In this document: piece by piece, positions 13-15,968 of the stretch
How positions within the stretch are numbered: the stretch's first letter is position 1
How the letters are laid out: each line of letters begins with the position of its first letter
From: Spirochaetota bacterium
GTDB lineage: Bacteria > Spirochaetota > GWB1-36-13 > JAKPDD01
Assembly (NCBI GenBank): GCA_029552945.1
Contig: JAKPDD010000046.1
Location: forward strand, 139,612 to 203,611
DNA: 64,000 nt
Direction of reading: 5' to 3'
Position numbers and translations under genes: made by a program
The notes under the pieces: model-generated
The model's database searches: none
What the model saw: only the letters and a program-made list of their open reading frames with translations
Told to the model about the DNA's origin: nothing

Positions 13-615
13 ATGAGAAATAAGATTATTATTTTTTTGTTATTTTTAAGCTTTGTATGTTATGGTAAAATGGAGGATGACTTTATAGATGCAGTTAAGA
101 CAAATGATCTTGAAAGAACAAAGTCTCTTATTCATCAGGGTGTTAATATTAATTACAAAGATAAAGATGGATTTACTGCATTGCACCATGCTGTCATTAA
201 TAATAATCTTAAAATGATAAATCTTATTTTAAGAGAGAATAGTCCTTTTATACCTACTGATAGATTTTTGCTTTCAGTTCCAGTGGTTGCTCTAAGCGTT
301 ATATTGTTTATAGTTATTGCAGCAATACTTGCTGTTTTTTATTCTCATAAACTTGCAGGGCCTGTGTATAGAATAGAAAAAAGTATATTGAAAATAATTA
401 ATGGTGCCCATAACTTCAGGGTTACACTTAGAAAAAAGGATGAGTTTAAAAACCTTGCTGATACTTTTAATAAGTTGATTGATTATGTTGATAAGCATTA
501 TAAAATAATTGAAAATGTTAAGTCTTTGATAAAGAATTATGAGGAGACAGGTAATAAAGATTTTATAAAAAAGGCTGAAGAGATTATAAACTCACATGTA
601 GAGGAGAGATTGTAA
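13..615 (+). CDS. Membrane signalling protein: N-terminal hydrophobic segment, ankyrin-like repeat, TM helix, HAMP-like domain, short tail
   Basis: 200-aa ORF; ankyrin-like motif DGFTALHHAVINNNLKMINLIL; after the TM helix, LAGPVYRIEKSILKIINGAHNFRVTLRKKDEFKNLADTFNKL fits the HAMP pattern (P...G....R....DEF..LA..FN). Confidence 0.5.
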   Translation: MRNKIIIFLLFLSFVCYGKMEDDFIDAVKTNDLERTKSLIHQGVNINYKDKDGFTALHHAVINNNLKMINLILRENSPFIPTDRFLLSVPVVALSVILFIVIAAILAVFYSHKLAGPVYRIEKSILKIINGAHNFRVTLRKKDEFKNLADTFNKLIDYVDKHYKIIENVKSLIKNYEETGNKDFIKKAEEIINSHVEERL

Positions 616-1524: not shown

Positions 1525-2664
1525 ATGTCATATAATTTAACGCCCTTCCAAGAGATGATAAGAGAGGTTACAAGAGAAATAACTGAAAAAGAGTTTAAAA
1601 ACAGGGCAGAGGAGATTGATAAGGAACATAGGTTTCCGGTAGAAAATGTTGAACTGTTAAAAAAGTTGGGGTATTTAGGGCTTTCAATCCCTAAAGAGTT
1701 AGGTGGATCCGGTGGTGATTATCTATCTTACATTATTGCTCTTGAAGAGATAGCGAGGTATTGTGCAACTACATGTGTTATATTATCAGCACATATATCA
1801 TTAGCTTGTAGTCCAATACTTAGTTTTGGTACACCGGAACAGAAAGAAAAGTTCTTAAGACCACTTGCAAGTGGAAAATATCTTGGTGCTTTTGGTCTTA
1901 CTGAACCTGGTGCTGGTACTGATGCTGGGGCACAGAAAACAAGAGCTGTTCTTGATGGTAATGAATGGGTATTAAATGGAACTAAGGTTTTTATTACCAA
2001 CGCAAAATATGCTGATCTGTATATAATATTTGCTATGACTGATCCTGCAGCTGGTGTTAAAGGTATAAGTGCTTTTATTGTTCCTGCTGATACGAAAGGG
2101 TTTTCGATAGGTAAAATTGAAGAAAAATTAGGTATATCAGGTTCAAGTACAGGTGAATTAATACTTGAAGATGTTAGAATACCAAAAGATTATATTTTAG
2201 GGCAACCTGGCATGGGGTTCAGAATAGCTATGCAGACACTTGATGGTGGAAGGATAGGTATAGCAGCACAGGCACTTGGTATTGCTCAAGGCTCTTTAGA
2301 TGAATCTATCAAATATGTAAAAGAGAGAGAACAATTTGGAAAACCTATAGCTGTCAATCAAGGTCTACAGTGGTATATAGCAGAAATGGCTACAAGGGTT
2401 GAAGCAGCAAGACTACTTGTTTATAATGCAGCAAGATTAAAAGATGCTAAAAAACCTTTTAGTAAAGAAGCTGCAATGGCAAAACTTTATGCATCAGAGA
2501 CAGCTACTTTTGTTTCTCATAAAGCTATTCAATTGTTTGGTGGTTATGGTTATACTAAAGATTATCCTGTGGAAAGGTTTTATAGAGATGCAAGAATTAC
2601 AGAGATATATGAAGGTACTTCAGAAGTTCAAAAAATGGTAATTGCAGCAAATGTTTTAAAGTAG
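1525..2664 (+). CDS. bcd: Short-chain (butyryl-CoA-type) acyl-CoA dehydrogenase
   Basis: 379 aa; acyl-CoA dehydrogenase-like throughout (GAFGLTEPGAGTDAG, C-terminal YEGTSEVQKMVIA); RBS GAGGGGG before ATG; followed by etfB and etfA. Confidence 0.9.
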   Translation: MSYNLTPFQEMIREVTREITEKEFKNRAEEIDKEHRFPVENVELLKKLGYLGLSIPKELGGSGGDYLSYIIALEEIARYCATTCVILSAHISLACSPILSFGTPEQKEKFLRPLASGKYLGAFGLTEPGAGTDAGAQKTRAVLDGNEWVLNGTKVFITNAKYADLYIIFAMTDPAAGVKGISAFIVPADTKGFSIGKIEEKLGISGSSTGELILEDVRIPKDYILGQPGMGFRIAMQTLDGGRIGIAAQALGIAQGSLDESIKYVKEREQFGKPIAVNQGLQWYIAEMATRVEAARLLVYNAARLKDAKKPFSKEAAMAKLYASETATFVSHKAIQLFGGYGYTKDYPVERFYRDARITEIYEGTSEVQKMVIAANVLK

Positions 2665-2673
2665 GAGGATGAA

Positions 2674-3474
2674 ATGGATATAAAAAATATAATAGTTTTG
2701 ATAAAACAGGTTCCAAATACAAATGAAATAAAAATAGATCCAAAAACAGGTACTTTGATAAGGGAAGGTATCCCAAGTATCATGAATCCTGATGATAAGC
2801 ACGCTTTAGAGGAAGCTTTAAAAATAAAAGAACAAACAGGTGCAACTGTTACAGTTATTACAATGGGGCCACCTCAAGCTGAAAAAATATTATTAGAAGC
2901 TTTAGGAATGGGAGCTGATAAAGCTTATCATGTTACTGATAGACTCTTTGCTGGTGCTGATACATTGGCTACTTCATATACATTAAGTTCAGCTATAAAG
3001 AAAATAGGGGAGTTTGATATTATTTTTGCTGGTAGAGAAGCTATAGATGGTGATACTGCTCAAGTTGGTCCTCAAATTGCAGAAATGCTTGGAATCCCAC
3101 AGGTAACTTATGTTAAGAGTGTTGAAATTAAGGGGAAAAAGCTTAAAATAAAAAGAGCACTGGAAAATGGTTATTATGAGGTTGAGGTTGAAACTCCTGT
3201 TTTACTTACAGCAATAAAAGACCTTAATACTCCAAGATACCCTAATGTTGCTAATATTGCTAATGCTTTTGCCAATAAAAGCTCTCTTATTACATTACTT
3301 GGTGCAAATTCATTGGATGTAGACCAAAATAGGTTGGGACTTAAAGGTTCACCTACTCAGGTTTTTAAAAGTTTTTCACCTACTATAAAAAGACAAGGGG
3401 AAATATTAACTGGTAATGCGAGAGAGTCTGCATCAAAACTTAAAGCAAAATTAAAAGAAAGGCACTTAATTTAG
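2674..3474 (+). CDS. etfB: Electron transfer flavoprotein beta subunit
   Basis: 266 aa; typical EtfB N-terminus (IVLIKQVPNT, NPDDKHALEEAL); RBS AGGAGG; 9 nt after bcd. Confidence 0.9.
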   Translation: MDIKNIIVLIKQVPNTNEIKIDPKTGTLIREGIPSIMNPDDKHALEEALKIKEQTGATVTVITMGPPQAEKILLEALGMGADKAYHVTDRLFAGADTLATSYTLSSAIKKIGEFDIIFAGREAIDGDTAQVGPQIAEMLGIPQVTYVKSVEIKGKKLKIKRALENGYYEVEVETPVLLTAIKDLNTPRYPNVANIANAFANKSSLITLLGANSLDVDQNRLGLKGSPTQVFKSFSPTIKRQGEILTGNARESASKLKAKLKERHLI

Positions 3475-3484
3475 GGGGTAAAAT

Positions 3485-4468
3485 ATGGAAAATTATAGAG
3501 GAGTATTAGTTTTTGCTGAACAGAGAGAGGGAAATTTACAGAATGTTGCACTTGAGCTTTTAGGTGAAGCAAGAAAAATAGCAAATAAATTAAATGTTGA
3601 AGTTAGTGCACTTTTGGTGGGACATAAGATAGAAAAATTAGCAGATGCTTTATTTGAATATGGAGCTGATAAGGTTTATGTTGTTGATGATAAAGATTAT
3701 AACTATTATTCAACTGATCATTATGCTCATGTTTTTACTGAGGCGATAAAACAATTAAAACCAGAAATAGTATTAATAGGTGCAACAAGTATAGGTAGAG
3801 ACCTTGCTCCGAGAGTTTCAGCAAGACTTGGAACAGGGCTTACAGCTGACTGTACATCTCTTGATGTTGATGTGGAAAAAAGGTTATTGCTTCAGACAAG
3901 ACCTGCATTTGGTGGTAATGTAATGGCAACTATTATATGCCCTAATCATAGGCCTCAAATGGCAACTGTAAGGCCAGGTGTTATGGAAAAAAATTATGAA
4001 AAAGGTAGAACTGGGAAAGTAGAAAAATTAAATATACCTAAGATAGAATCCAAGGTTAAAGTGCTTAATGTTGTAAAAGAGGCTAAAAAAGCTGTTTCAT
4101 TAAGTGAAGCTAAGGTAATAGTTGCAGGTGGTAGAGGAGTTGGTTCAAAAGAGGGATTCAAACTTATAGAGGAACTTGCTAAGGTTTTAGGGGGTGAGGT
4201 AGGAGCATCAAGGGCTGCTGTTGAAGCTGGTTATATAACAAAAGACCATCAGGTTGGACAAACTGGACAAACTGTTAAACCAGAACTATATATTGCATGT
4301 GGTATATCTGGTGCAATACAACACTTGGCTGGTATGCAATCATCAAGAACAATAATAGCAATAAACAAAGACCCTAATGCACCAATATTCAAAGTATGTG
4401 ATTATGGCATTGTTGGAGAAATAAAAGAGGTTATACCTGCTCTTATTGAAGAGCTAAAAAATAAATAA
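3485..4468 (+). CDS. etfA: Electron transfer flavoprotein alpha subunit
   Basis: 327 aa; EtfA FAD-binding region (AVGASRAAVEAGY, YIACGISGAIQHLAGM); RBS GGGGG. Confidence 0.9.
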   Translation: MENYRGVLVFAEQREGNLQNVALELLGEARKIANKLNVEVSALLVGHKIEKLADALFEYGADKVYVVDDKDYNYYSTDHYAHVFTEAIKQLKPEIVLIGATSIGRDLAPRVSARLGTGLTADCTSLDVDVEKRLLLQTRPAFGGNVMATIICPNHRPQMATVRPGVMEKNYEKGRTGKVEKLNIPKIESKVKVLNVVKEAKKAVSLSEAKVIVAGGRGVGSKEGFKLIEELAKVLGGEVGASRAAVEAGYITKDHQVGQTGQTVKPELYIACGISGAIQHLAGMQSSRTIIAINKDPNAPIFKVCDYGIVGEIKEVIPALIEELKNK

Positions 4469-4482
4469 TATGGAGGAAATTA

Positions 4483-4911
4483 ATGGAGATAATAGGAGTT
4501 ACAGTTGATAATATAAAAGTAGGTGATAAGGCAGCTATAAGAAAGACTATAACTGAGGCAGATATATTAATGTTTGCTGCTGTTTCAACAGATGCAAATC
4601 CTGCACATATAGATGAAGAATATGCAAAAAATACAATATTTAAAAAGAGAATTGCACACGGTGCTTTAACAAGTAGTTTAGTTTCAGCTGTTCTTGGAAT
4701 GAAACTACCTGGCCCTGGTACAATATATATAAGTCAGACTTCAAAGTTCCTTGCACCTGTATATATTGGTGATACTATAACTGCTATAGTTGAAGCAAAA
4801 GAGGTAAATACAGAAAAAAATAGAGTTGTTTTCAGAACATACTGTGAAAATCAGGAAGGAAAAATTGTTATGGATGGCGAAGCTGTTGTTATGCCACCAA
4901 AGAAAAAATAG
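4483..4911 (+). CDS. MaoC-like (R)-specific enoyl-CoA hydratase / dehydratase
   Basis: 142 aa hot-dog-fold protein (FAAVSTDANPAHIDEEYA, IAHGALTSS); last gene of the bcd-etf cluster. Confidence 0.75.
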   Translation: MEIIGVTVDNIKVGDKAAIRKTITEADILMFAAVSTDANPAHIDEEYAKNTIFKKRIAHGALTSSLVSAVLGMKLPGPGTIYISQTSKFLAPVYIGDTITAIVEAKEVNTEKNRVVFRTYCENQEGKIVMDGEAVVMPPKKK

Positions 4912-6675: not shown

Positions 6676-8112
6676 TTATAATTTTTCTTTATCATACTCT
6701 AATGCTTCAACTTTTGCTGCAATTTCTATCTGCTCTACCTTTTCTTTTCCAAATCTCTTTATTGTTATTTTATTTTCCCATTTACCTAATTTATAATATA
6801 AAAATGATAGTATTGCTCCCATAACCCAGGCAATAGGTATTCCCCACCATATACCTACTACTCCAATTTTTTTTGACAATATATATGAAATTGGTATTCT
6901 TAATGCCCATAAAGATATTATTGTTATAAACATAGGGATCAATGTATCTCCAACACCTCTTAAAAAACCATGGAATACAAACATAATAGAAAATGCTATA
7001 TAGAATGATGTTACTATTACAAGGTATTGATGACCTATGTTTATTACATTGATTTCATTATTAAATAGTTTAATTATATCAGTACCAAAAATATTTACTA
7101 TTATCACTATTATAAAAGAGTAAGTAATTGATATAAGTAGAGTTTTACTTATACCTTTTTTAGCTCTCTTTATATCATCTTTTCCAATATTTTGTCCTGT
7201 AAATGTTGATAGTGCTGCTGAAAAACTCATAGCAGGCATCATTGCTAAAGAATCAATTCTACCTGCTGCTGTGAATGCTGTTAATGCATCAACACCAAAG
7301 TTGTTAACAATTTTTGTAAGTCCTGCAAAACCAAGAGCAACTGCTATCTGTTGAACTCCAGTAGGTATTCCTAATTTAAGGATTATTTTAAGTAATTTAA
7401 AATCAAGTCTAAGATATTTTATATCTATTTTCAATATAGAGTTCTTTTTTTCAAGGATTATTATTCCAGTGATTAAGCCTATTCCTTCTGAGATAGCTGT
7501 AGCCCATGCCGCACCTTCAATACCCCAGTTAAAATAAACTACAAATAAAAGATCAAGTATTATATTTAGTAGACTAGAGAATATAAGCAAATATAATGGT
7601 GTTTTTGAATCTCCTATCCCTCTTAATGTGCTTGAAAGTCCATGAAATCCAATCAATAATACACTTGTTAAAAAGTTTATTCTTAGGTATTTTGTAGCAT
7701 CTTCTATTATGTTATCAGGTGTATTTATAAGTTTTAAAATGTTTTTTGATAATAAGGTTCCTGCTATTGTTATAACTAGTGAAAACAGGAATAAAAAATA
7801 ATATAGAGTACCATTAAGTTTTTTAAGTTTTTCAATATTCTTTGCACCGTAAAACTGTGAAGCAAGAATTGTTGCTCCCATTGTAAAGCCAAACATCATA
7901 GCAATTATTAAAAATATTATAGGAAAACTTGCACCTACTGCACTCAATCCCTCCTTACCTACAAATTTTCCAATTATAATGGCATCAACTATATTGTAGA
8001 ACTGCATAAGAATATTGCCTAATATAAGTGGAATACTGAAGTTTATTATATTTGATATTATACTACCTTTTGTCATATCTTTCATTGATTTATCCTTTTT
8101 AAGTTTTGTCAT
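6676..8112 (-). CDS. MATE family efflux transporter
   Basis: 478 aa polytopic membrane protein with 12 predicted TM helices and MATE-like repeat organisation. Confidence 0.8.
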   Translation of the reverse strand: MTKLKKDKSMKDMTKGSIISNIINFSIPLILGNILMQFYNIVDAIIIGKFVGKEGLSAVGASFPIIFLIIAMMFGFTMGATILASQFYGAKNIEKLKKLNGTLYYFLFLFSLVITIAGTLLSKNILKLINTPDNIIEDATKYLRINFLTSVLLIGFHGLSSTLRGIGDSKTPLYLLIFSSLLNIILDLLFVVYFNWGIEGAAWATAISEGIGLITGIIILEKKNSILKIDIKYLRLDFKLLKIILKLGIPTGVQQIAVALGFAGLTKIVNNFGVDALTAFTAAGRIDSLAMMPAMSFSAALSTFTGQNIGKDDIKRAKKGISKTLLISITYSFIIVIIVNIFGTDIIKLFNNEINVINIGHQYLVIVTSFYIAFSIMFVFHGFLRGVGDTLIPMFITIISLWALRIPISYILSKKIGVVGIWWGIPIAWVMGAILSFLYYKLGKWENKITIKRFGKEKVEQIEIAAKVEALEYDKEKL

Positions 8113-8257
8113 TTTTTAAAATTTTATTTATAAAAAAGTGTTTTAATATTGAAAATTATTTTTGTAGATTAAAATTTAAGTTTTAAGTTTATTTTATTAA
8201 TATTTTGAATTAAATATTTTAAATTTTGTATAGAATAAATTTTAACAGGGTTATTTT

Positions 8258-8623
8258 ATGAAAAGAGTACTTGTAATTGATGACTCTAATGTTATAAAAG
8301 CAAACACTGAGAGTATAATAACAAAAAATGGATTTGAGTTTGAACATGCTTTTGATGGTAAAGAAGCAATTAATATATTAAAGGCTGGATTTGAACCGAA
8401 TATTATAATTTGTGATATTAATATGCCTAATATGGATGGGCTTGAGTTTTTAGAATGGGTAAAAAACGAAGATAATTTTAAGTTTATTCCAGTAGTAATG
8501 CTAACAACTGAAACAGAAATACAGTTAATGCAAAAAGCTAAAAAACTTGGAGCATCTGGCTGGATAATTAAGCCTTTTGATGAGGATACACTGATCGAAG
8601 TAATAAAAAAATTTATAAGGTAA
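8258..8623 (+). CDS. Single-domain CheY-like response regulator receiver
   Basis: 121 aa; receiver motifs (VLVIDDS, IIICDINMPNMDG, KPFD). Confidence 0.8.
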   Translation: MKRVLVIDDSNVIKANTESIITKNGFEFEHAFDGKEAINILKAGFEPNIIICDINMPNMDGLEFLEWVKNEDNFKFIPVVMLTTETEIQLMQKAKKLGASGWIIKPFDEDTLIEVIKKFIR

Positions 8624-8627
8624 TATC

Positions 8628-9557
8628 ATGTGGATAATAGATATTATAAAAACATCTGGTAAAACAGGTTTTGAGATTGGTGTATACATATTACTTCCTA
8701 TTCTTGTTGTAATGATGGCTTTTATGAGACTTATTGAAAAAAAAGGGATATTAGTAAAAATCGCATTTATTACTTCTCCTGTTATGTTTTTTTCAGGTTT
8801 ACCTGCTATAGGACTTTTTGCTGTTCTTCAGATACTTTTTGTAAACTTTGCTGCTCCCCTTGCTACACTTGCTATAATGGAAGAAGATGATTCGATATCA
8901 GAAAGAGAGGTTGCAGCAGTTCTTGCTGTAATATTTTCAATGCCTCAGGCAAATGCTACTTTTCCATTGACACTAAAGGGATTGAATCTTGGTATAACAA
9001 TTTTTTTTGCTTTAATATCTATGTTTTTGACCGGTATGATAACTTACCATTTACTTACAAGAAATATGGGGGACCATTCTCTTAAGCTCTTAAAAAAAAT
9101 AAATTATCAAAAGTCAAATGAAAAAATATTGAGAATAATTATGGACTCGGGTGCGGAGGGTTTCAGACTTGCTTTAAACTCTATTCCAATGATAATCATC
9201 GCATTATTTATAGTAAATGTTCTTAAGGGTATTGGTTTTATAGAGTTTCTTGAAAGTGTTTTAAAACCAGTGTTTTCTCATTTAGGAATACCTTCTATAA
9301 CAGTTTTACCTGTGGTTACAAAGTATATTGCAGGTGGTACTGCAATGATGGGAGTTACTATCGACTTAATGGATAAAGGTCTTTTAAATAGTCTTGACCT
9401 TAACAGAATAGCAGGGTTTGTTATTAATCCACTTGATCCTGTTGGTGTTGCTATACTTGCAAGTAGTTCTAAAACTTCTAGAGTCTTAAAAAAAGCAATA
9501 ATGGGTGGTATAATAGGAATACTTATAAAAGGTATTTTACATATAATATATTTTTAG
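8628..9557 (+). CDS. Polytopic membrane protein, nucleoside-recognition (Gate) domain-like
   Basis: 309 aa with multiple TM helices; 4 nt after the CheY-like gene; family assignment by pattern only. Confidence 0.4.
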   Translation: MWIIDIIKTSGKTGFEIGVYILLPILVVMMAFMRLIEKKGILVKIAFITSPVMFFSGLPAIGLFAVLQILFVNFAAPLATLAIMEEDDSISEREVAAVLAVIFSMPQANATFPLTLKGLNLGITIFFALISMFLTGMITYHLLTRNMGDHSLKLLKKINYQKSNEKILRIIMDSGAEGFRLALNSIPMIIIALFIVNVLKGIGFIEFLESVLKPVFSHLGIPSITVLPVVTKYIAGGTAMMGVTIDLMDKGLLNSLDLNRIAGFVINPLDPVGVAILASSSKTSRVLKKAIMGGIIGILIKGILHIIYF

Positions 9558-9565
9558 GTTTTATT

Positions 9566-11167
9566 ATGCTTTTTGTTTTTGACAAAAATTATAATCTTAT
9601 ATTTACCCAGTCTAAAGAATATAACTTTATTGAAGTATTAAGAGAGTTTGCATTATCTGATAAAAACTCTGAGACTATAAAATACGATGATAAAATTTAT
9701 TTTTTAACAAAGATCTCTGACTTAAATAATAATATTGCTATTAAAGTTGAAGATATTAGTGAAAATAAGATACCATCAGAAAAGTTGTTTAAATATTTTT
9801 TAAATGCGTTTGAACAGGCTTATGATGGGATTGTTATAACAGATGAAAATAATAATGTTATATATATAAACTCAAATTATGCAAGGTTTCTTGAAGTAAA
9901 TAAAGATGAGAGTATAGGTAAATATATAAAAGATGTTATAAAAGAGAGCAGAATACCTATAGTTTCTGAAACAAAAAAACCTGAAATTGGTTATGTTTGG
10001 GAAACAAAGGGAAAACCACTTCTTGTAAGTAGAATACCTCTTTTTGATAACGGCAGGTTTATAGGGGTTATAGGACTAATACTTTTTAGGAACTCAATAG
10101 AGGTTGCTCAATTTTTAAAAAAGATAGAGAAGATAGAAAAAGAGCTTGCATATTATAAAGAGTCTCAAAATTCAGATTGGTCAGCTAAATATGATTTTGG
10201 ATTTATAAAAACAAGAAGTAAGGAGGTTATTGGGATAATTGAAAGAGCAAAGAAGATTGCAGTAACTAATTCAAACGTTATTATAACTGGGGAGAGTGGG
10301 ACAGGAAAAGAGATTATTGCTCATGCAATACACCTGGCTAGTCCAAGGAGTAATAAACCTTTTGTAAGAATAAACTGTAGTGCTATTCCTGAAGAGCTTT
10401 TTGAATCAGAATTTTTTGGTTATGAAAAGGGTGCTTTTACAGGTGCAAAAGACTTAAAACAAGGAAAGTTTGAAATTGCAAACAGTGGTACTCTATTTCT
10501 TGATGAGATAGGAGACCTTCCTTTAAAAATGCAGGCAAAACTTCTTAGAGTTATCCAGGAAGGAGAAATTGAAAGAGTAGGCGGGACTAAACCTATTAGT
10601 GTTGATGTAAGGATAATTGCTGCAACTAATAAAAACCTTAAAGAACTTATTGAAAGAGGTTTGTTCAGAGAAGACCTTTATTATAGACTATCAGTTTTTC
10701 AAATTAATATGATACCTTTAAGAGAGAGGGTTGAAGATATAAGACTTTTATTTGATTATTTTTTAAAAGAATACATGGATAATATAGGATTCTGCGATAT
10801 AGCAGTTGATGAAGAGGTTTATAATATACTTGAAAAATATTCATGGCCAGGTAATGTTAGAGAATTGAAAAATGTAGTTGAAACTGTAAGTGTATCTCTT
10901 GAAGGATATAAGATAGGGCTTAAAGATATACCAGGTTATATTTTAAACTTTGAACTTAGTAAAAATGTAAAAGATTTAGATAAAAATTATTATAATCGTT
11001 ATAATAATATAAAGGAATATAAAACATCTATATTTGAGCTTGAAAAAAAATTGATAATAGATGCTTTGAATAAAGCTAACGGGAACAAGAAAAAAGCTGC
11101 CAAACTTCTTGGAATAGCAAGGAGCTTGTTATACAAAAAGATAAAAGACTTTGGAATTGAATTATGA
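9566..11167 (+). CDS. Sigma-54-dependent transcriptional activator with N-terminal PAS-like sensor, AAA+ domain and C-terminal HTH
   Basis: 533 aa; Walker [15 protein letters not shown] motif (YEKGAFTGA), arginine finger region, C-terminal Fis-like HTH; no receiver domain. Confidence 0.9.
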   Translation: MLFVFDKNYNLIFTQSKEYNFIEVLREFALSDKNSETIKYDDKIYFLTKISDLNNNIAIKVEDISENKIPSEKLFKYFLNAFEQAYDGIVITDENNNVIYINSNYARFLEVNKDESIGKYIKDVIKESRIPIVSETKKPEIGYVWETKGKPLLVSRIPLFDNGRFIGVIGLILFRNSIEVAQFLKKIEKIEKELAYYKESQNSDWSAKYDFGFIKTRSKEVIGIIERAKKIAVTNSNVIITGESGTGKEIIAHAIHLASPRSNKPFVRINCSAIPEELFESEFFGYEKGAFTGAKDLKQGKFEIANSGTLFLDEIGDLPLKMQAKLLRVIQEGEIERVGGTKPISVDVRIIAATNKNLKELIERGLFREDLYYRLSVFQINMIPLRERVEDIRLLFDYFLKEYMDNIGFCDIAVDEEVYNILEKYSWPGNVRELKNVVETVSVSLEGYKIGLKDIPGYILNFELSKNVKDLDKNYYNRYNNIKEYKTSIFELEKKLIIDALNKANGNKKKAAKLLGIARSLLYKKIKDFGIEL

Positions 11168-11179
11168 ATCATATTTTAA

Positions 11180-11196
11180 TGTCTATAAAGTAGACA
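11180..11196. promoter_or_regulatory. Inverted repeat TGTCTA-N5-TAGACA (candidate enhancer-binding protein site 1)
   Basis: Perfect 6-bp arms with 5-bp spacer; about 190 bp upstream of the candidate -24/-12 element. Confidence 0.45.
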
Positions 11197-11203
11197 AACA
11201 TTA

Positions 11204-11220
11204 TGTCTAATATATAGACA
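11204..11220. promoter_or_regulatory. Inverted repeat TGTCTA-N5-TAGACA (candidate enhancer-binding protein site 2)
   Basis: Identical arms and spacing to site 1, 24 bp downstream of it. Confidence 0.45.
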
Positions 11221-11306
11221 CTAATAGGTACAAATTAAATTCATTGTGTTTTCATACATTTTTATTATTATTGTTTATCTTTTACTTTAGTTTTTATTTT
11301 TCTATA

Positions 11307-11323
11307 TGTCTAAAATAGGGACA
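11307..11323. promoter_or_regulatory. Degenerate third copy TGTCTA-N5-GGGACA
   Basis: Left half-site identical, right half-site matches 4 of 6. Confidence 0.25.
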
Positions 11324-11373
11324 CTATCTTTTTTAAATATATATAAAGTATTGATTATCAAATATTTATATTT

Positions 11374-11389
11374 TGGAACAATTTTTGAC
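11374..11389 (+). promoter_or_regulatory. Candidate sigma-54 (-24/-12) promoter TGGAAC-N5-TTGA
   Basis: GG and the -12 element at canonical spacing; deviates from TGGCAC-N5-TTGC at two positions; about 45 nt upstream of the ATG at 11436. Confidence 0.3.
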
Positions 11390-11435
11390 TATAATGTAAT
11401 TGCTTGTTAACAAAAAAATAACTGGAGGTGTCTTG

Positions 11436-11894
11436 ATGAAAATTAAGTTAAGTGAAAATGCAAAGACCATATTACATGTGGTCAATGCTATTCTCTGGAT
11501 ATGGCTTTTGATAGCCAGCTGGTCTAAAAATGAGGATCTACTAAAAATTACTTTCTTTGTAATGCCTTTTATTGTATTTTTCTATTTATTGATGGGAATT
11601 GAAAAGAGAAATGAAGTAAAATCACCTGTCCCATTATTTTATCCTGCTATAACTCTTTTTATTGTTTGGGTTGTCTCTTTTTATCTTGTTTTAAGTTATA
11701 GAGGAATATCTGTTGATCCTTCTGATTTTATTTTAGGTATGCATCCTTCTATGGCAGCTGCTCTACTTATTTTTTGGATTGGAAATCTTCTTACTACTGC
11801 TTTATCATATGTTCTATTTTTTGATGAGAGTGTTGATGAAAAAGAGTGGAATGATTTTCTTAATGAAGTAAGCAAATATCAAAAACTTAAATAG
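11436..11894 (+). CDS. Small membrane protein preceding the symporter (possible symporter accessory subunit)
   Basis: ORF track starts at TTG 11400; ATG at 11436 has RBS GGAGGTG; about 4 predicted TM helices; 10 nt before the symporter gene. Confidence 0.45.
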   Translation: MKIKLSENAKTILHVVNAILWIWLLIASWSKNEDLLKITFFVMPFIVFFYLLMGIEKRNEVKSPVPLFYPAITLFIVWVVSFYLVLSYRGISVDPSDFILGMHPSMAAALLIFWIGNLLTTALSYVLFFDESVDEKEWNDFLNEVSKYQKLK

Positions 11895-11904
11895 GGGGTG
11901 AACT

Positions 11905-13470
11905 ATGAAATTGGGTAAAATATTAGGAATTATTTTGTTTAATATTATCGCTTTTTCTTCTGTATTTGCTCAGGACAAAAAATTAACAGAATACATGGAA
12001 ACAAGTACTTTTACTGTGATTTATACTATAATGTTTTTATTAATATCTGTTTTATTAGGAGTATGGGCATCAAAGAAGGCTAAAACAGCGGAGGGTTTTT
12101 TTGGTGGAACAAAGTCTTTTGGTCCAATAACTATTGGGCTTGCTTCAATGGCTGCATTGATGAGTGCTTTTGGGTTTGTAGGGGGGCCAGGGCTTGTTTA
12201 TAAATTGGGTTTCTCTTCTATATGGATGACTATTGCATGTGGACCTGGTTTTGCTTATGCATACTGGATATTAGGTAAAAGAATGAGAGCTATGGCAGAA
12301 GTTACATCTGTTGCAACATTACCTGACATAGCAAGGGTAAGATATCAGTGTAATGCAATAAGAGCAATATTTGCTTTTGGCCTATTGATAGCAGCAATTG
12401 CATATCTTTCATCTCAGATGAAAGGTGCGGCAATGACTCTTGCTCAGATGTTGGGTGTATCTGAAACATGGGCAATAGTCATATTTATGGGTGTAATGCT
12501 TATATTCTTATTAAAAGCAGGTATGGCTGCAAGTATAGTAACAGATGCTTTTCAAGGCTTAATAATGCTTATAGGTGTTTTTGCTGTTGTGATTGGTTTC
12601 TTCATATTAACTAAAGGTGATGCTATGGTCTCTATTGCCCAGGCTCAAAACCTTGGAACAAAATATGTTGATGGTATTGGTGCTGCACCATTACAGACAA
12701 TAATAACATTTACAATTGTATTTTTTGTATTTGTAATGTCTCAGTCAACAATGTTAAGTAAGATGTATACTGTTAAGAGCTATAAAGGACTAAAGCAGGC
12801 AGGTCTTTTAAGTGGTGTAACTTATGCTATGGCATCACTTGTATGGATCCTAGTAGGATATGGTGCTCTATATTTGCTTGCTCAGGGTAGGATAGAACCA
12901 CTTCAAAAGGCTGATAATGCTGCTTTTGTTTTTTTAAATGCACTTGAGTCACCAATAATTTCTACATTAGTTATGGCCTCACTCTTTGCTGCTACAATAT
13001 CCACAGCAAGTTACTTTTTAACTTTAGCATCTTCAAGTATTACTAGAGATATATTAGGTTCTTTTGGTGTTGAATTATCACAAGAAAAACAGATAGCATG
13101 GGGAAGAGTAATAATGATTTTAATAGCATTACTGTCTATTGGATTTGCTTATTGGGGAACCGATATGGTTGCTATATTAGGTACAATAGGATGGGGATTT
13201 TTTGCATCTGTTAACTTCCCAACACTTACACTTGGATTATTATGGAAAAGAACAAGTAGAGAGGGTGTACTAACAGGTATAATTCTTGCAATACTCTTAA
13301 ATATCCTCCTACCAATACTTGATAGAACAGGTATATATAAACTACCTTTCCCATATTACACACTCTCAATAGTTGTTTCAATATCAGCAACTGTTTTTGT
13401 ATCATTGTTTACTAAAGGTTCTGCAGGTGATAATCTACCTGAACCTATAAAACCAATATTTAAACTCTAA
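11905..13470 (+). CDS. Sodium:solute symporter (SSS family) transporter
   Basis: 521 aa with about 13 TM helices and SSS-like organisation; RBS GGGGGTG. Confidence 0.8.
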   Translation: MKLGKILGIILFNIIAFSSVFAQDKKLTEYMETSTFTVIYTIMFLLISVLLGVWASKKAKTAEGFFGGTKSFGPITIGLASMAALMSAFGFVGGPGLVYKLGFSSIWMTIACGPGFAYAYWILGKRMRAMAEVTSVATLPDIARVRYQCNAIRAIFAFGLLIAAIAYLSSQMKGAAMTLAQMLGVSETWAIVIFMGVMLIFLLKAGMAASIVTDAFQGLIMLIGVFAVVIGFFILTKGDAMVSIAQAQNLGTKYVDGIGAAPLQTIITFTIVFFVFVMSQSTMLSKMYTVKSYKGLKQAGLLSGVTYAMASLVWILVGYGALYLLAQGRIEPLQKADNAAFVFLNALESPIISTLVMASLFAATISTASYFLTLASSSITRDILGSFGVELSQEKQIAWGRVIMILIALLSIGFAYWGTDMVAILGTIGWGFFASVNFPTLTLGLLWKRTSREGVLTGIILAILLNILLPILDRTGIYKLPFPYYTLSIVVSISATVFVSLFTKGSAGDNLPEPIKPIFKL

Positions 13471-13494
13471 TTATCTTACTTTATTTAGATTATG

Positions 13495-13518
13495 AGCCCT
13501 CTTCTGGGGGCTTTTTTG
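13495..13518 (+). terminator. Stem-loop (AGCCC...GGGCT) followed by TTTTTT between symporter and CoA-transferase genes
   Basis: GC-rich 5-bp stem then T-tract; possible terminator or attenuator inside the putative operon. Confidence 0.4.
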
Positions 13519-13549
13519 TATTTTTTATTTTCTTCTCAGGAGGTTTAAA

Positions 13550-15091
13550 ATGAAAGCTAGAATAGTGTCTGCTGAAGAGGCTGTTAAAAACATAAAGTCT
13601 GGTGATGTTGTTGCAACAGAAGGTTTTGTTGGCAATGGTTTTGCAGAGGAGATTGCGATAGCATTAGAGAAGAGGTTTATTGAAACTGGAGAACCAAGGG
13701 ATCTTACTTTGATATATGCTGCTGGTCAGGGGGATGGTAAAGAGAAAGGATTAAATCACCTTGCATATGAAGGACTTGTAAAAAGAGTGATTGGCGGTCA
13801 CTGGGGGCTTGCACCAAAGTTGGGTAAAATGGCACTTGAAAACAAAATAGAGGCATATAACCTTCCGCAGGGGTGTATATCACACCTTTTTAGAGCTATA
13901 GCTGGTAAAAGACCAGGGCATATTACTCATGTTGGACTTGGAACATTTGTTGATCCAAGAATAAGTGGCGGGAAAATGAATGAAAGGACAAAAGAGGATA
14001 TCGTAAAACTTATAGAGATTGATGGTAAAGAGTATCTTTTTTATAAGTCTATACCAATAGATGTTGCTATATTAAGGGGTACAACAGCGGATACAAGGGG
14101 AAATGTTACACTGGAAAAAGAGGCTCTTACACTTGAGAATCTTTCTATGGCTCAAGCAGCTAAAAACTCAGGGGGGATTGTTATAGTTCAGGTTGAAAGA
14201 ATTGCTGAAGCAGGATCTTTGGCTGCAAGAGATGTAAAAATACCAGGAATTCTTGTAGATTTTATTGTTGTTGCTAAGCCAGAAAATCACTGGCAAACAT
14301 TTTCAGAAAAATATAATCCTGCTTATAGCTGTGAGATAAAAATACCATTATCTGCTATAACTCCATTACCGCTTGATGAAAGAAAGATAATTGGAAGAAG
14401 AGCTGCAATGGAGCTTGTTGAGGGTTCTGTTGTTAATCTTGGTATAGGAATGCCAGAAGCAGTTGGGGTTGTTGCAGCTGAGGAAGGAATATTAAATAAT
14501 TTTATTCTTACTGTTGAACCAGGACCAATAGGGGGAGTACCGGCAGGTGGTTTAAGTTTTGGTGCTTCTTCTAATATGGAAGCATTAGTTGACCAACCCT
14601 ATCAATTTGACTTTTATGATGGTGGGGGACTTGACCTTGCTTTTTTAGGGCTTGCTCAGGTTGATCAGTTTGGAAATATTAATGTAAGTAAGTTTGGACC
14701 AAGGTTTGCAGGTGCAGGTGGTTTTATAAACATAACACAAAATGCTAAAAAAGTTTTCTTCCTTGGTACATTTACTGCAGGTGATTTACAGGTTGAAGTA
14801 AAAGATACTAAATTAAAAATAGTACAGGAAGGAAAGACAAGAAAGTTTGTAAGAAATGTTGAACATATAACTTTTAGTGGTGAATATGCAAAAAAAGTTA
14901 AAAGGCCAGTACTTTATATTACAGAGAGAGCAGTGTTCAAATTAACTGATGAAGGACTTGAACTTATTGAAATTGCACCTGGTATAGATATAGAAAAAGA
15001 TATATTAACACATATGGACTTTAAACCAATAATAAAGTCACCAAAGATTATGGATACTAGAATATTTAAAAAAGATAAAATGGGTCTATAA
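13550..15091 (+). CDS. Acyl-CoA:acetate/3-ketoacid CoA-transferase family protein (fused two-domain type)
   Basis: 513 aa; CoA-transferase family I features in both halves (GGxWG-like region HWGLAPKLG); RBS AGGAGG. Confidence 0.75.
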
Positions 15092-15094
15092 TAT

Positions 15095-15117
15095 AAGGGG
15101 GAATTAACTTTCCCCTT
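15095..15117 (+). terminator. Rho-independent terminator-like hairpin AAGGGG...CCCCTT
   Basis: 6-bp GC-containing stem, then ATTTAATT; 4 nt after the CoA-transferase stop. Confidence 0.5.
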
Positions 15118-15276
15118 ATTTAATTAAAAAAATATTTACTTTTATTTAATTTTTTGTTATATTTAAATACTGTAAGTTGTTTTATCTTAAGAGTAATCTA
15201 AAGAAGTCATACTTGCGATTAATCTTTACTAAAACTCACTTACCAAATAATAATTATTTTCTGGAGGAAAATTATA

Positions 15277-15561
15277 ATGTCAAACAAACTTTATGTTGGA
15301 AATCTAAATTACTCGGTTACAAATGAAGAATTAAGAGTATTTTTTGAGGAAAATTATACTGTAAAAGATGTTAGAGTAATTGAAGGAAAAGGTTTTGGTT
15401 TTGTTGAACTTGAAACAAAAGAAGAAGCAAATGATGCAAAAGAAAGATTTAATGAGTTTGAGTTTAAAGGAAGAAAAATGAGGGTAGATATAGCAAAACC
15501 AAAAAATGAAAATAGGTCTTTTAGAAGAGACAGAGGTTTTTCAAGAGAAAGAAGGTATTAA
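15277..15561 (+). CDS. RRM-type RNA-binding protein
   Basis: 94 aa; RNP-2 (LYVGNL) and RNP-1 (KGFGFVE) motifs; Arg-rich C-terminal tail. Confidence 0.8.
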   Translation: MSNKLYVGNLNYSVTNEELRVFFEENYTVKDVRVIEGKGFGFVELETKEEANDAKERFNEFEFKGRKMRVDIAKPKNENRSFRRDRGFSRERRY

Positions 15562-15578
15562 AAATATATTATTCTTTT

Positions 15579-15600
15579 AAAAGGGGGAGTGCCCCTTTTT
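15579..15600 (+). terminator. Rho-independent terminator AAAAGGGG-GAGTG-CCCCTTTT
   Basis: 8-bp stem, 5-nt loop, T-rich 3' side; about 18 nt after the RRM gene stop. Confidence 0.6.
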
Positions 15601-15968
15601 ATTTTATGTTTGTTTTGATTTTCAATCAGTATTTTCAGATTTTTATTCAATATTTTTTGTGATAAATTGTTCATAAATTTGTGAATTATGGATTTTATTC
15701 TTAAAAATTTATTTTTTAAAACTTTTTAGAGTAAATCGACATGCTAACCACTATTAATAAAGCTAATTGAATATATGAAATTTTAAGGAGTGGATAAAAT
15801 CTTTATTAACTGAACAATTTTTTAAAACTTTTAACCCAAAAGATTTAATATAATAATTTTAAAGACTAATTTTGTAATTGAACGATTATTCTAGAAAATT
15901 TTGATAAAAAAAATTAGTAATAAAATTTTATATATATTTTTTTGTTTAATTTTTAAAGGTTTAACTTT

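What the first reader, a model, noticed from the sequence alone, without database searches (positions are those of the whole stretch)
9566..15091. Ato-like module: sigma-54 activator with ligand-sensing PAS domain, small membrane protein, symporter and CoA-transferase
The gene order resembles the E. coli atoC-atoDAEB logic (a sigma-54 activator controlling short-chain fatty acid uptake and CoA activation), but here the activator has a PAS-like sensor and no receiver domain, the transporter is an SSS-family symporter with a small accessory membrane protein, and the transferase is a fused single polypeptide. The substrate is unknown; acetoacetate, 3-hydroxybutyrate or butyrate would fit. A stem-loop plus T-tract at 13495-13518 separates symporter and transferase, suggesting attenuation within the operon.
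Basis: inference. Interest (0 to 1): 0.45.

Follow-up and report, generated by a model that had tools for sequence, protein, structure and literature searches.

The report
Sigma-54 controlled short-chain acid uptake operon
An uncultured spirochaete carries a regulator-plus-operon cassette that most likely imports a small (about four-carbon) organic acid and attaches coenzyme A to it; this is an ordinary kind of catabolic module, but its transporter needs a small membrane partner protein of a family not described before.

Summary
9566-11167 encodes a sigma-54 activator with a PAS domain, an AAA+ domain carrying GAFTGA, and an HTH, with no receiver. 11436-11894 encodes a 152-aa four-helix membrane protein with no Pfam family. 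11905-13470 encodes an SSS symporter. 13550-15091 encodes a fused family I CoA-transferase, 47% identical to E. coli YdiF, with the catalytic Glu conserved.

The 268-bp gap after the activator gene holds the only three TGTCTA-N5-TAGACA palindromes in 64 kb, plus a -24/-12-like element. Two diverged spirochaete relatives keep both features. Syntrophales loci with an adjacent activator have near-consensus TGGCAC-N5-TTGC promoters. Four of the five without one do not.

The small protein precedes the symporter in all 17 loci examined outside this species. The pair always sits near CoA-transferases or C4 beta-oxidation enzymes, which suggests a C4 hydroxy-, keto- or enoyl-acid substrate.

The 13494-13513 hairpin is real. 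An equivalent hairpin follows the symporter gene in all 14 loci tested.

Caveats:
- The window's own -12 element is GA, not GC.
- Co-transcription of the transferase is inferred.
- The substrate is unproven.

Verdict: a new variant of a known kind, of modest interest.

The parts
8258..8623 (+). Stand-alone CheY-like receiver protein (121 aa). It is the first gene of the tightly packed regulator operon; whether it has a role in the module is unknown.
   Evidence: Response_reg E=1.9e-27. It lies 4 nt before the Gate gene. The same arrangement occurs in the related species L037 but not in L007.
8628..9557 (+). Gate-domain (nucleoside-recognition family) membrane protein, 309 aa, ending 8 nt before the activator gene.
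   Evidence: PF07670 E=7.2e-10. The Gate-activator pairing is kept in L007, L013 and L037. Homologues at 43-49% identity in other phyla sit in unrelated contexts.
9566..11167 (+). Sigma-54 enhancer-binding protein: N-terminal region plus PAS sensor (78-171), AAA+ domain (216-380) with GAFTGA, lid domain, and Fis-type HTH (491-529). No receiver domain.
   Evidence: The best NCBIfam model is PrdR at 454.6 bits, below its 795 cut-off. AtoC scores 355.9 against a 714 cut-off and matches only residues 202-532.
11180..11196 (.). Predicted activator-binding palindrome 1: TGTCTATAAAGTAGACA.
   Evidence: One of only three matches (<=1 mismatch) to TGTCYA-N5-TRGACA in the 64-kb window. All three lie in this intergenic region. 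Conserved in L013 and L007.
11204..11220 (.). Predicted activator-binding palindrome 2: TGTCTAATATATAGACA.
11307..11323 (.). Predicted activator-binding palindrome 3: TGTCTAAAATAGGGACA.
   Evidence: The equivalent site in L013 is at 2613 and in L007 at 5591.
11356..11368 (+). IHF-consensus-like site TATCAAATATTTA (WATCAANNNNTTR), between palindrome 3 and the -24 element. Inferred.
   Evidence: Read from the sequence. L013 has AATCAATATATTA at the aligned position. In DNA this A+T-rich it could be chance.
11374..11389 (+). Sigma-54 -24/-12-like element TGGAAC-AATTT-TTGAC. The -12 dinucleotide is GA instead of the canonical GC.
   Evidence: The positionally equivalent elements are TGGAAT-GATAA-TTGCA in L013/L037 and TGGCAC-GCTTT-ATGCA in L007. 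The TTGAC reading is identical in four independent assemblies. The window's own match is not significant alone: a score of 11 or more occurs in 28% of 420-nt windows.
11436..11894 (+). Small membrane protein (152 aa) with four TM helices and an acidic C-terminal amphipathic helix. Predicted obligatory partner or subunit of the symporter.
   Evidence: No Pfam family. It lies immediately upstream of the symporter gene in all 17 loci examined outside this species. Only 43 cluster representatives in 1.84 billion proteins reach E<=1e-3. Topology.
11905..13470 (+). Sodium:solute symporter family transporter (521 aa), with a signal-peptide-like N-terminal segment.
   Evidence: PF00474 E=3.2e-40. It scores below the cut-offs of the PutP, PanF, VC_2705, MctC and ActP models. 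The closest genome relatives are in Syntrophales at 51-63% identity.
13494..13519 (+). Intrinsic-terminator-like hairpin GAGCCCTC-TTCT-GGGGGCTT followed by a T-tract, between the symporter and transferase genes.
   Evidence: A strong hairpin lies within 60 nt of the symporter stop codon in all 14 loci tested (z -3.0 to -7.7).
13550..15091 (+). Fused (alpha+beta in one chain) family I CoA-transferase of the YdiF / propionate-CoA-transferase type. Glu323 is the predicted catalytic residue.
15096..15117 (+). Terminator-like hairpin ending the module.
   Evidence: 8 pairs, 4 G-C.

Best explanation
This is a sigma-54-dependent catabolic cassette for a short-chain carboxylic acid.

Proposed mechanism:
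1. The PAS-domain activator senses a cytoplasmic ligand, either the acid or a CoA ester derived from it. This step is inferred.
2. The activator binds the three TGTCTA-N5-TAGACA palindromes just after its own gene.
3. Possibly helped by DNA bending at an IHF-like site, it uses ATP to open the sigma-54 promoter at 11374-11389.
4. The transcript encodes a two-part importer, made of the new four-helix small protein and an SSS cation symporter, which takes up the acid.
5. A terminator-like hairpin directly after the symporter gene stops or stabilises most transcripts.
6. Read-through expresses the YdiF-type CoA-transferase. It converts the imported acid to its CoA thioester at the expense of acetyl-CoA (or another acyl-CoA), without spending ATP.

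The neighbours of this transporter pair and of the closest transferase homologues suggest a C4 acid feeding the 3-hydroxybutyryl-CoA / crotonyl-CoA / acetoacetyl-CoA node. Candidates are 3-hydroxybutyrate, crotonate, acetoacetate or butyrate.

Shown here: domain identities, the catalytic Glu, the conserved gene order, the conserved palindromes and promoter position, and the conserved hairpin. Inferred: the ligand, the substrate, the coupling ion, the physical small-protein/symporter complex, and read-through.
For: **Domains.**

**Conserved order.** Gate, activator, small protein, symporter and transferase keep this order in L007, where the CoA-transferase is 76% identical to the window's, and in L013/L037, where it is 90% identical.

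**Palindromes.** All three <=1-mismatch matches in 64 kb lie in the 268-bp regulatory gap. They recur at matching positions in L013 and L007.

**Promoter in relatives.** Near-consensus sigma-54 promoters (score >=13 of 15.5, about 2% of random 420-nt windows) lie upstream of the small-protein gene in all 11 other loci that encode the adjacent activator. They are absent from 4 of the 5 loci that lack it.

**The organism uses sigma-54.** There are four GAFTGA activator genes in this window alone.

**Transporter pair.** The small protein and symporter are adjacent in every locus.

**Linkage of the pair to CoA-dependent acid metabolism in Syntrophales.**
- Fused CoA-transferase downstream in L019, L021, L023, L024 and L026, with MaoC in between in L021.
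- Two-subunit family I transferase upstream in L015, L017, L020 and L028.
- Family III transferase in L025.
- Hbd-type 3-hydroxyacyl-CoA dehydrogenase next to the pair in L016, L018, L022 and L027.
- Thiolase and MaoC in L016.

**Closest transferase homologue outside the lineage.** At 76% identity it sits in a thiolase, GntP permease, transferase, SDR cluster.

**Precedents.**
- PAS-type sigma-54 activators are predicted to control CoA-transferase/transporter and crt-hbd-thl-maoC-bcd-etf operons in Clostridiales (PMC6615313).
- PA2005/RpoN control (R)-3-hydroxybutyrate metabolism in P. aeruginosa (title cited).
- Small subunits DUF485 and DUF4212 are required by SSS carboxylate transporters (bioRxiv 10.1101/072470).

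**No obvious transferase promoter.** No sigma-70-like promoter was predicted on the + strand between 13243 and 14290. Only 36 nt separate the hairpin from the transferase start codon.
Against: - The window's own -12 element is TTGAC (GA, not the near-invariant GC). Taken alone its match is not significant.
- A perfect TATAAT lies at 11390-11395, so some sigma-70 transcription cannot be excluded.
- No rpoN gene lies in the window.
- The hairpin has a good T-tract and is found after the symporter gene even where no transferase follows. It may therefore terminate fully, leaving the transferase as a separate unit.
- No thiolase, Hbd or 3-hydroxybutyrate dehydrogenase is present in the 64 kb.
- The nearby ACAD-EtfBA-MaoC cluster (1525-4911) is not conserved next to the module in the related species.
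- YdiF/Pct enzymes are broad in specificity, so C3 acids (propionate, lactate, acrylate) are not excluded. The nearby ACAD scores best against the acryloyl-CoA reductase model, although below its cut-off.
Confidence: 0.68

Rival explanations
1. There are two separate units. The sigma-54 regulon comprises only the small-protein and symporter genes. The hairpin at 13494-13519 is a full terminator, and the CoA-transferase is transcribed on its own and merely lies next door.
For: - The hairpin has a canonical T-tract.
- An equivalent hairpin ends the small-protein/symporter pair in all 14 loci tested, including those where no transferase follows.
- Close transferase homologues also occur alone, without transporter or activator (L004, L030).
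Against: - Only 36 nt, consisting of a T-run and a ribosome-binding site, lie between the hairpin and the transferase ATG.
- No sigma-70-like promoter is predicted there.
- The symporter-to-transferase adjacency is kept in three spirochaete lineages and five Syntrophales loci.
- In L007 the hairpin has no T-tract.
Confidence: 0.2
2. The module serves fermentation rather than catabolism. The symporter imports acetate as the CoA acceptor, and the transferase moves CoA from butyryl- or propionyl-CoA to acetate, releasing butyrate or propionate as an end product. This would link to the nearby acyl-CoA dehydrogenase/Etf/MaoC genes.
For: - An ACAD-EtfB-EtfA-MaoC cluster lies 4.6 kb upstream.
- The ACAD is most similar to the clostridial acryloyl-CoA reductase/Bcd type.
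- YdiF/Pct enzymes use acetate as acceptor (established knowledge of the family).
- The symporter shows weak similarity to the ActP and MctC monocarboxylate symporters.
Against: - The symporter scores 76 bits against an ActP cut-off of 750.
- The ACAD/Etf cluster is on the far side of three divergently oriented genes and is absent from the same position in the related species.
- A dedicated ligand-sensing activator and a high-affinity-type symporter are more typical of scavenging a scarce substrate (inference).
Confidence: 0.08
3. The module is for an amino-acid-derived acid, such as proline or 5-aminovalerate. The activator's best model is PrdR and the symporter's best equivalog is the proline symporter PutP.
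For: PrdR scores 454.6 bits over residues 43-529, and PutP scores 128 bits.
Against: - Both scores are far below the curated cut-offs of 795 and 515.5.
- No proline reductase or aminovalerate genes lie nearby.
- The neighbours of the transporter pair elsewhere are CoA-transferases and beta-oxidation enzymes.
Confidence: 0.04

Closest known systems
E. coli AtoSC / atoDAEB (acetoacetate and short-chain fatty acid utilisation)
   Same: A sigma-54-type activator gene lies next to an operon that combines a short-chain acid transporter with a family I CoA-transferase. The logic of uptake followed by ATP-free CoA activation is the same.
   Different: - The activator has a PAS sensor instead of a phospho-receiver, and there is no AtoS kinase.
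- The transferase is a single fused YdiF-type chain, not AtoD plus AtoA.
- The transporter is an SSS with a small partner, not AtoE.
- There is no thiolase in the operon.

This is functional analogy, not membership.
Predicted clostridial sigma-54 regulons CrbR / AhcR / XcgR (PMC6615313)
   Same: [quoted passage not shown]
   Different: - The phyla differ (Spirochaetota and Syntrophales).
- The transporter here is SSS plus a small protein rather than GntP or AtoE.
- The binding-site motif is a different one.
- Orthology of the activators was not tested.
- The clostridial regulons are themselves mostly computational predictions.
E. coli YdiF and clostridial propionate CoA-transferase (Pct)
   Same: The fused family I fold aligns along its full length (47% identity to YdiF, E=5e-150), and the catalytic glutamate in the TVE(T/P)GPIGG motif is conserved.
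   Different: The substrate preference is unknown. The genomic coupling to a dedicated importer and a sigma-54 activator is not a feature of ydiF or pct.
Two-component SSS carboxylate transporters (ActP-YjcH/DUF485; VC_2705-type large subunit with DUF4212)
   Same: A small membrane protein is encoded immediately upstream of an SSS symporter for small organic acids. Adjacency is strictly conserved.
   Different: The small protein here has four TM helices and about 150 aa, against about two helices and 80-100 aa. It matches neither DUF485 nor DUF4212, nor any other Pfam family. The symporter fails the cut-offs of the ActP and VC_2705 models.
P. aeruginosa PA2005 / RpoN control of (R)-3-hydroxybutyrate metabolism
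   Same: A sigma-54 activator governs catabolism of a C4 hydroxy-acid.
   Different: Only the title of this work could be consulted. Its gene set is different, and homology was not tested here.

Membership tests
AtoSC/atoDAEB system | The activator is an NtrC-type response regulator with an N-terminal receiver domain (AtoC). | tested here: not met
   There is no Response_reg hit in the activator. The AtoC model scores 355.9 bits against a 714 cut-off and matches only residues 202-532.
AtoSC/atoDAEB system | A cognate sensor kinase (AtoS) is encoded alongside. | tested here: not met
   No HisKA/HATPase_c gene appears among the called genes within 10 kb either side of the transferase gene, about 6 kb upstream of the activator gene. 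Only an orphan CheY-like gene is present.
AtoSC/atoDAEB system | Two-subunit acetate CoA-transferase AtoD/AtoA, AtoE transporter and AtoB thiolase in the operon. | tested here: not met
   The transferase is a single 513-aa chain and the transporter is PF00474. No thiolase was found in the window by tblastn.
Bacterial enhancer-binding proteins (sigma-54 activators) | AAA+ Sigma54_activat domain with the GAFTGA loop, plus a C-terminal HTH. | tested here: met
   PF00158 E=4.9e-73, HTH_8 E=1.6e-13. GAFTGA is encoded at 10430.
PrdR (proline reductase regulator) equivalog | Score above the NCBIfam NF041552 cut-off. | tested here: not met
   454.6 bits against a 795 cut-off.
Sigma-54 promoter | GG at -24 and GC at -12 with the fixed spacing (TGGCAC-N5-TTGC). 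| tested here: inconclusive
   The window reads TGGAAC-N5-TTGAC. The GG and the spacing are correct, but -12 is GA. The homologous positions in L013 and L007, and the Syntrophales loci with an adjacent activator, carry canonical GC.
Fused family I CoA-transferase (YdiF/Pct type) | Both CoA_trans halves in one chain, full-length similarity to YdiF, and the catalytic Glu in the EXGXXG motif. | tested here: met
   PF01144 shows two stretches. 2ahu aligns at E=5e-150 over residues 4-512 with 47% identity. Glu323 in TVEPGPIGG aligns with YdiF Glu333.
Fused family I CoA-transferase (YdiF/Pct type) | Acyl-CoA:short-chain-acid CoA-transferase activity and substrate range. | not testable with these tools
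   This needs enzyme assays.
   Only E~5e-4 matches over about 60 N-terminal residues to succinyl-CoA:acetate transferases. There is no PF02550 or PF13336 hit.
Sodium:solute symporter family (TC 2.A.21) | PF00474 / TIGR00813 fold over about 400 residues. | tested here: met
   PF00474 E=3.2e-40 over residues 65-461.
Named SSS subfamilies (PutP, PanF, ActP, MctC, VC_2705) | Score above the curated cut-off. | tested here: not met
   Scores against cut-offs: PutP 128/515, PanF 114/328, ActP 76/750, MctC 79/670, VC_2705 98/321.
Known SSS small subunits (DUF485/YjcH, DUF4212) | Sequence match to PF04341 or PF13937. | tested here: not met
   hmmscan at E<=1 gives only three insignificant, unrelated hits. 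A structural comparison was not possible because the model had pLDDT 54.7.
Intrinsic (Rho-independent) terminator | G+C-rich stem-loop followed directly by a T-run. | tested here: met
   13494-13513 has 8 pairs (5 G-C) followed by TTTTTTGTATTTTTT. Termination efficiency is not testable here.

The most novel reading that the evidence does not exclude
The 150-aa four-helix protein and its symporter may form a previously undescribed two-subunit SSS transporter family. It would be dedicated to C4 acids (3-hydroxybutyrate or crotonate) and shared by anaerobic Spirochaetota and syntrophic Syntrophales. It is always wired to CoA-transferases and usually to a PAS-type sigma-54 activator. If so, it would name the so far unidentified short-chain acid uptake system of syntrophic fatty-acid degraders.
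Probability: 0.35. Interest if true: 0.45.

Novelty: new variant of a known kind. Interest (0 to 1): 0.3.

Why it matters
Short-chain acids are the main currency of anaerobic digesters and sediments, yet how uncultured spirochaetes and syntrophs take them up is poorly known. This locus gives a testable candidate: a transporter pair, an activating enzyme, a regulator and its DNA sites, shared between two phyla. It also adds a third, unrelated family of small partner proteins for SSS carboxylate symporters. The regulatory logic and the enzymology are otherwise conventional.

Tried and rejected
- **Structure of the small protein.** AlphaFold2 on the four-sequence alignment gave pLDDT 54.7 and pTM 0.38. 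That is too poor for a fold search, so none was run.
- **Gate-domain protein as a general co-sensor.** Its homologues in Alkaliphilus, Neptuniibacter and Desulfuromonadaceae have unrelated neighbours. The pairing is therefore lineage-specific and its role is unknown.
- **Pathway partners in the window.** tblastn with thiolase, Hbd, SDR and GntP sequences from related loci found nothing in the window.
- **ACAD-EtfBA-MaoC cluster as part of the module.** Rejected as firm evidence, because it is not adjacent in the related species.
- **Riboswitch or leader RNA.** An Rfam scan of 8000-15800 gave only sub-threshold hits on the final terminator.
- **Window-wide search for the sigma-54 consensus.** The degenerate pattern is not enriched (3 found against 1.1 expected). 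The other hits lie inside genes.
- **Literature on Syntrophus uptake and CoA-transferase.** The paper that could be read does not identify the transporter. Three other papers were not held.
- **SDR in the L001 cluster as 3-hydroxybutyrate dehydrogenase.** This was not confirmed. Its best model is a 3-ketoacyl reductase, below cut-off.


Full report
**Source and setting.** The window is low in G+C (about 28%). It matches a metagenome-assembled Spirochaetota genome from anaerobic digesters (GCA_035361555.1, contig DAOSCS010000001.1). Three other assemblies covering the full module differ from it at 1 to 28 of 5526 bases.

**The observation.** All four genes are at the stated coordinates.

- Activator (9566-11167). 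It has a sigma-54 interaction domain (E=4.9e-73), an AAA lid and a Fis-type HTH. PAS and PAS_9 hits at residues 78-171 are just above the Pfam cut-offs. There is no receiver domain. The GAFTGA loop that contacts sigma-54 is present. The best curated model is PrdR, at 454.6 bits against a 795 cut-off. AtoC matches only the AAA+/HTH part.
- Small protein. It should start at ATG 11436 (152 aa), behind a GGAGGT ribosome-binding site. This is how four of the five public annotations listed call it, and it matches the homologues. It has four predicted transmembrane helices and a C-terminal amphipathic helix. It matches no Pfam family even at E<=1.
- Symporter (11905-13470). It belongs to the SSS family (E=3.2e-40) but scores below the cut-offs of the PutP, PanF, ActP, MctC and VC_2705 models.
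- Transferase (13550-15091). It is a single-chain family I CoA-transferase. It aligns over residues 4-512 with E. coli YdiF (2ahu, E=5e-150, 47% identity). Glu323, in TVEPGPIGG, aligns with YdiF Glu333. That residue is the catalytic glutamate according to my own knowledge of the YdiF structure papers.

**Regulatory DNA.** The 268-bp gap between the activator gene and the small-protein gene carries three copies of the palindrome TGTCTA-N5-TAGACA, at 11180, 11204 and 11307. These are the only three matches with at most one mismatch in the whole 64 kb.

Downstream lie an IHF-consensus-like site (11356-11368) and the element TGGAAC-AATTT-TTGAC (11374-11389), 47 nt before the start codon. Taken alone this element is weak. 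Its -12 dinucleotide is GA instead of GC, and an equal or better score occurs in 28% of 420-nt windows. The GA reading is the same in four independent assemblies.

Comparison gives the element its weight:
- In the related species (L013/L037) the aligned position reads TGGAAT-GATAA-TTGCA.
- In a more distant spirochaete (L007) it reads TGGCAC-GCTTT-ATGCA.
- Both keep the palindromes at corresponding positions.

Among 14 Syntrophales loci that carry the same transporter pair, the nine with an adjacent homologous activator all have a near-consensus TGGCAC-N5-TTGC 26-134 nt upstream of the small-protein gene. Such scores occur in about 1-2% of random windows. Four of the five loci without an adjacent activator have nothing comparable.

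I therefore regard activator- and sigma-54-dependent transcription of the small-protein/symporter unit as well supported for the family. It is probable, but with a degenerate -12 element, for this genome. A perfect TATAAT at 11390-11395 has no -35 partner, so some sigma-70 transcription cannot be ruled out.

**The transporter pair.** The small-protein gene lies immediately upstream of the symporter gene, with a gap of about 10-13 nt, in every locus examined. These are three spirochaete lineages and 14 Syntrophales loci. Small-protein identities fall to 29-37%, while the symporters remain 51-63% identical.

An exhaustive profile search found only 43 cluster representatives of the small protein in 1.84 billion proteins. 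Small subunits that SSS carboxylate transporters need are already known, namely DUF485/YjcH and DUF4212 (bioRxiv 10.1101/072470). This protein belongs to neither family by sequence, and with four helices it is larger.

**Substrate.** The context in related loci points to a short acid whose CoA ester enters the C4 beta-oxidation node.

| Neighbour of the small-protein/symporter pair | Loci |
|---|---|
| Fused CoA-transferase directly downstream (MaoC hydratase in between in L021) | L019, L021, L023, L024, L026 |
| Two-subunit family I CoA-transferase a few kb upstream | L015, L017, L020, L028 |
| Family III CoA-transferase | L025 |
| Hbd-type 3-hydroxyacyl-CoA dehydrogenase adjacent | L016, L018, L022, L027 |
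| Thiolase and MaoC | L016 |

The replacement of one CoA-transferase type by another, next to the same transporter, argues that the transported molecule is activated by CoA transfer. The nearest transferase homologue outside the lineage (76% identity) lies in a thiolase, GntP permease, transferase, SDR cluster beside a 3-hydroxyacyl-CoA dehydrogenase.

In the window, an acyl-CoA dehydrogenase/EtfBA/MaoC cluster lies at 1525-4911. It is separated from the module by divergent genes and is not adjacent in the related species, so I give it little weight. No thiolase or Hbd gene is in the window.

C3 acids are not excluded, because YdiF/Pct enzymes are broad in specificity.

**The hairpin.** The stem-loop at 13494-13513 followed by a T-run fits the terminator pattern. 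A strong hairpin lies within 60 nt of the symporter stop codon in all 14 loci tested, whatever gene follows (z from -3.0 to -7.7 against shuffles). Several are followed by T-rich tracts. L007 has none.

This makes the hairpin the conserved 3' boundary of the small-protein/symporter unit, not a device peculiar to this operon. In the window only 36 nt, a T-run and a ribosome-binding site, separate it from the transferase start codon, and no sigma-70-like promoter is predicted nearby. Read-through, meaning partial termination, is therefore the simplest way to express the transferase. The rival view, that the transferase is a separate unit, keeps about 20% of my confidence.

A CheY-like receiver gene (8258-8623) and a Gate-domain membrane protein gene (8628-9557) sit 4 and 8 nt from their downstream neighbours and so probably share a transcript with the activator gene. 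The Gate-activator pairing is kept in all three spirochaete lineages, and the CheY gene in two. Gate-protein homologues in other phyla have unrelated neighbours. Their role in this module is unknown.

**Comparison with known systems.** The module works like E. coli atoSC-atoDAEB, but none of the five Ato features tested was met. It has no receiver, no kinase, no two-subunit transferase, no AtoE and no thiolase.

It is closer in design to the PAS-type one-component activators predicted to drive CoA-transferase/transporter and C4 acyl-CoA operons in Clostridiales (PMC6615313). It also resembles sigma-54 control of 3-hydroxybutyrate metabolism in Pseudomonas, for which only the title was available.

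**Verdict.** It is a new variant of a known kind of system. The less ordinary points are the new small partner protein, the sharing of the cassette between Spirochaetota and Syntrophales, and the off-consensus -12 element. Interest is modest.

Noticed in passing
window 10430(+), 21265(+), 35117(+), 46044(-): There are four sigma-54 activator genes (GAFTGA motif) within 64 kb, at least two of them the response-regulator type. No rpoN box was found in the window. This is a high density of sigma-54 regulators for a small stretch.
   Followed up: partly
window 8258-9557: A stand-alone CheY-like receiver gene and a Gate-domain (nucleoside-recognition family) membrane protein gene are packed 4 and 8 nt from the next gene, ahead of the receiver-less activator gene. 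The arrangement is conserved in the related species. It is untested whether the orphan receiver or the membrane protein modulates the activator.
   Followed up: partly
window 11387-11395: The -12 element reads TTGAC instead of TTGCA in four independent assemblies. It is followed directly by a perfect TATAAT with no -35 partner. This may be a weakened or partly sigma-70-usable promoter in this species only.
   Followed up: partly
window 11905-11975 (symporter residues 1-23): The symporter has a signal-peptide-like N-terminal segment, MKLGKILGIILFNIIAFSSVFA/QD. The Syntrophales homologues lack it; their alignments start at residues 16-29 (70 in one locus).
   Followed up: no
P0073 residues 532-661; L019 8644-10674; L023 4236-6227: The Syntrophales versions of the CoA-transferase (about 661 aa, 64-69% identical) carry a C-terminal extension of about 130 aa with no Pfam family.
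   Followed up: partly
window 1525-4911: This is an acyl-CoA dehydrogenase, EtfB, EtfA, MaoC dehydratase cluster. The dehydrogenase scores best against the clostridial acryloyl-CoA reductase model (553.6 bits, cut-off 640). It is not adjacent to the module in the related species.
   Followed up: partly
window 15277-15561: A small RRM-type RNA-binding protein gene (94 aa) follows the module after a 185-nt A+T-rich spacer. It is absent at this position in the related species L012/L037.
   Followed up: no
window 13-615: An ankyrin-repeat protein (200 aa) is encoded at the window edge. A TGG-N9-TTGCA match at 621-637 lies just downstream of it.
   Followed up: no
L020 10084-12376; L030 7478-8871: IS21-type and rve-type transposase genes flank the transporter pair in L020 and the CoA-transferase in L030. 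This hints at mobility of these genes in Syntrophales, which may explain the sharing of the cassette between phyla.
   Followed up: no
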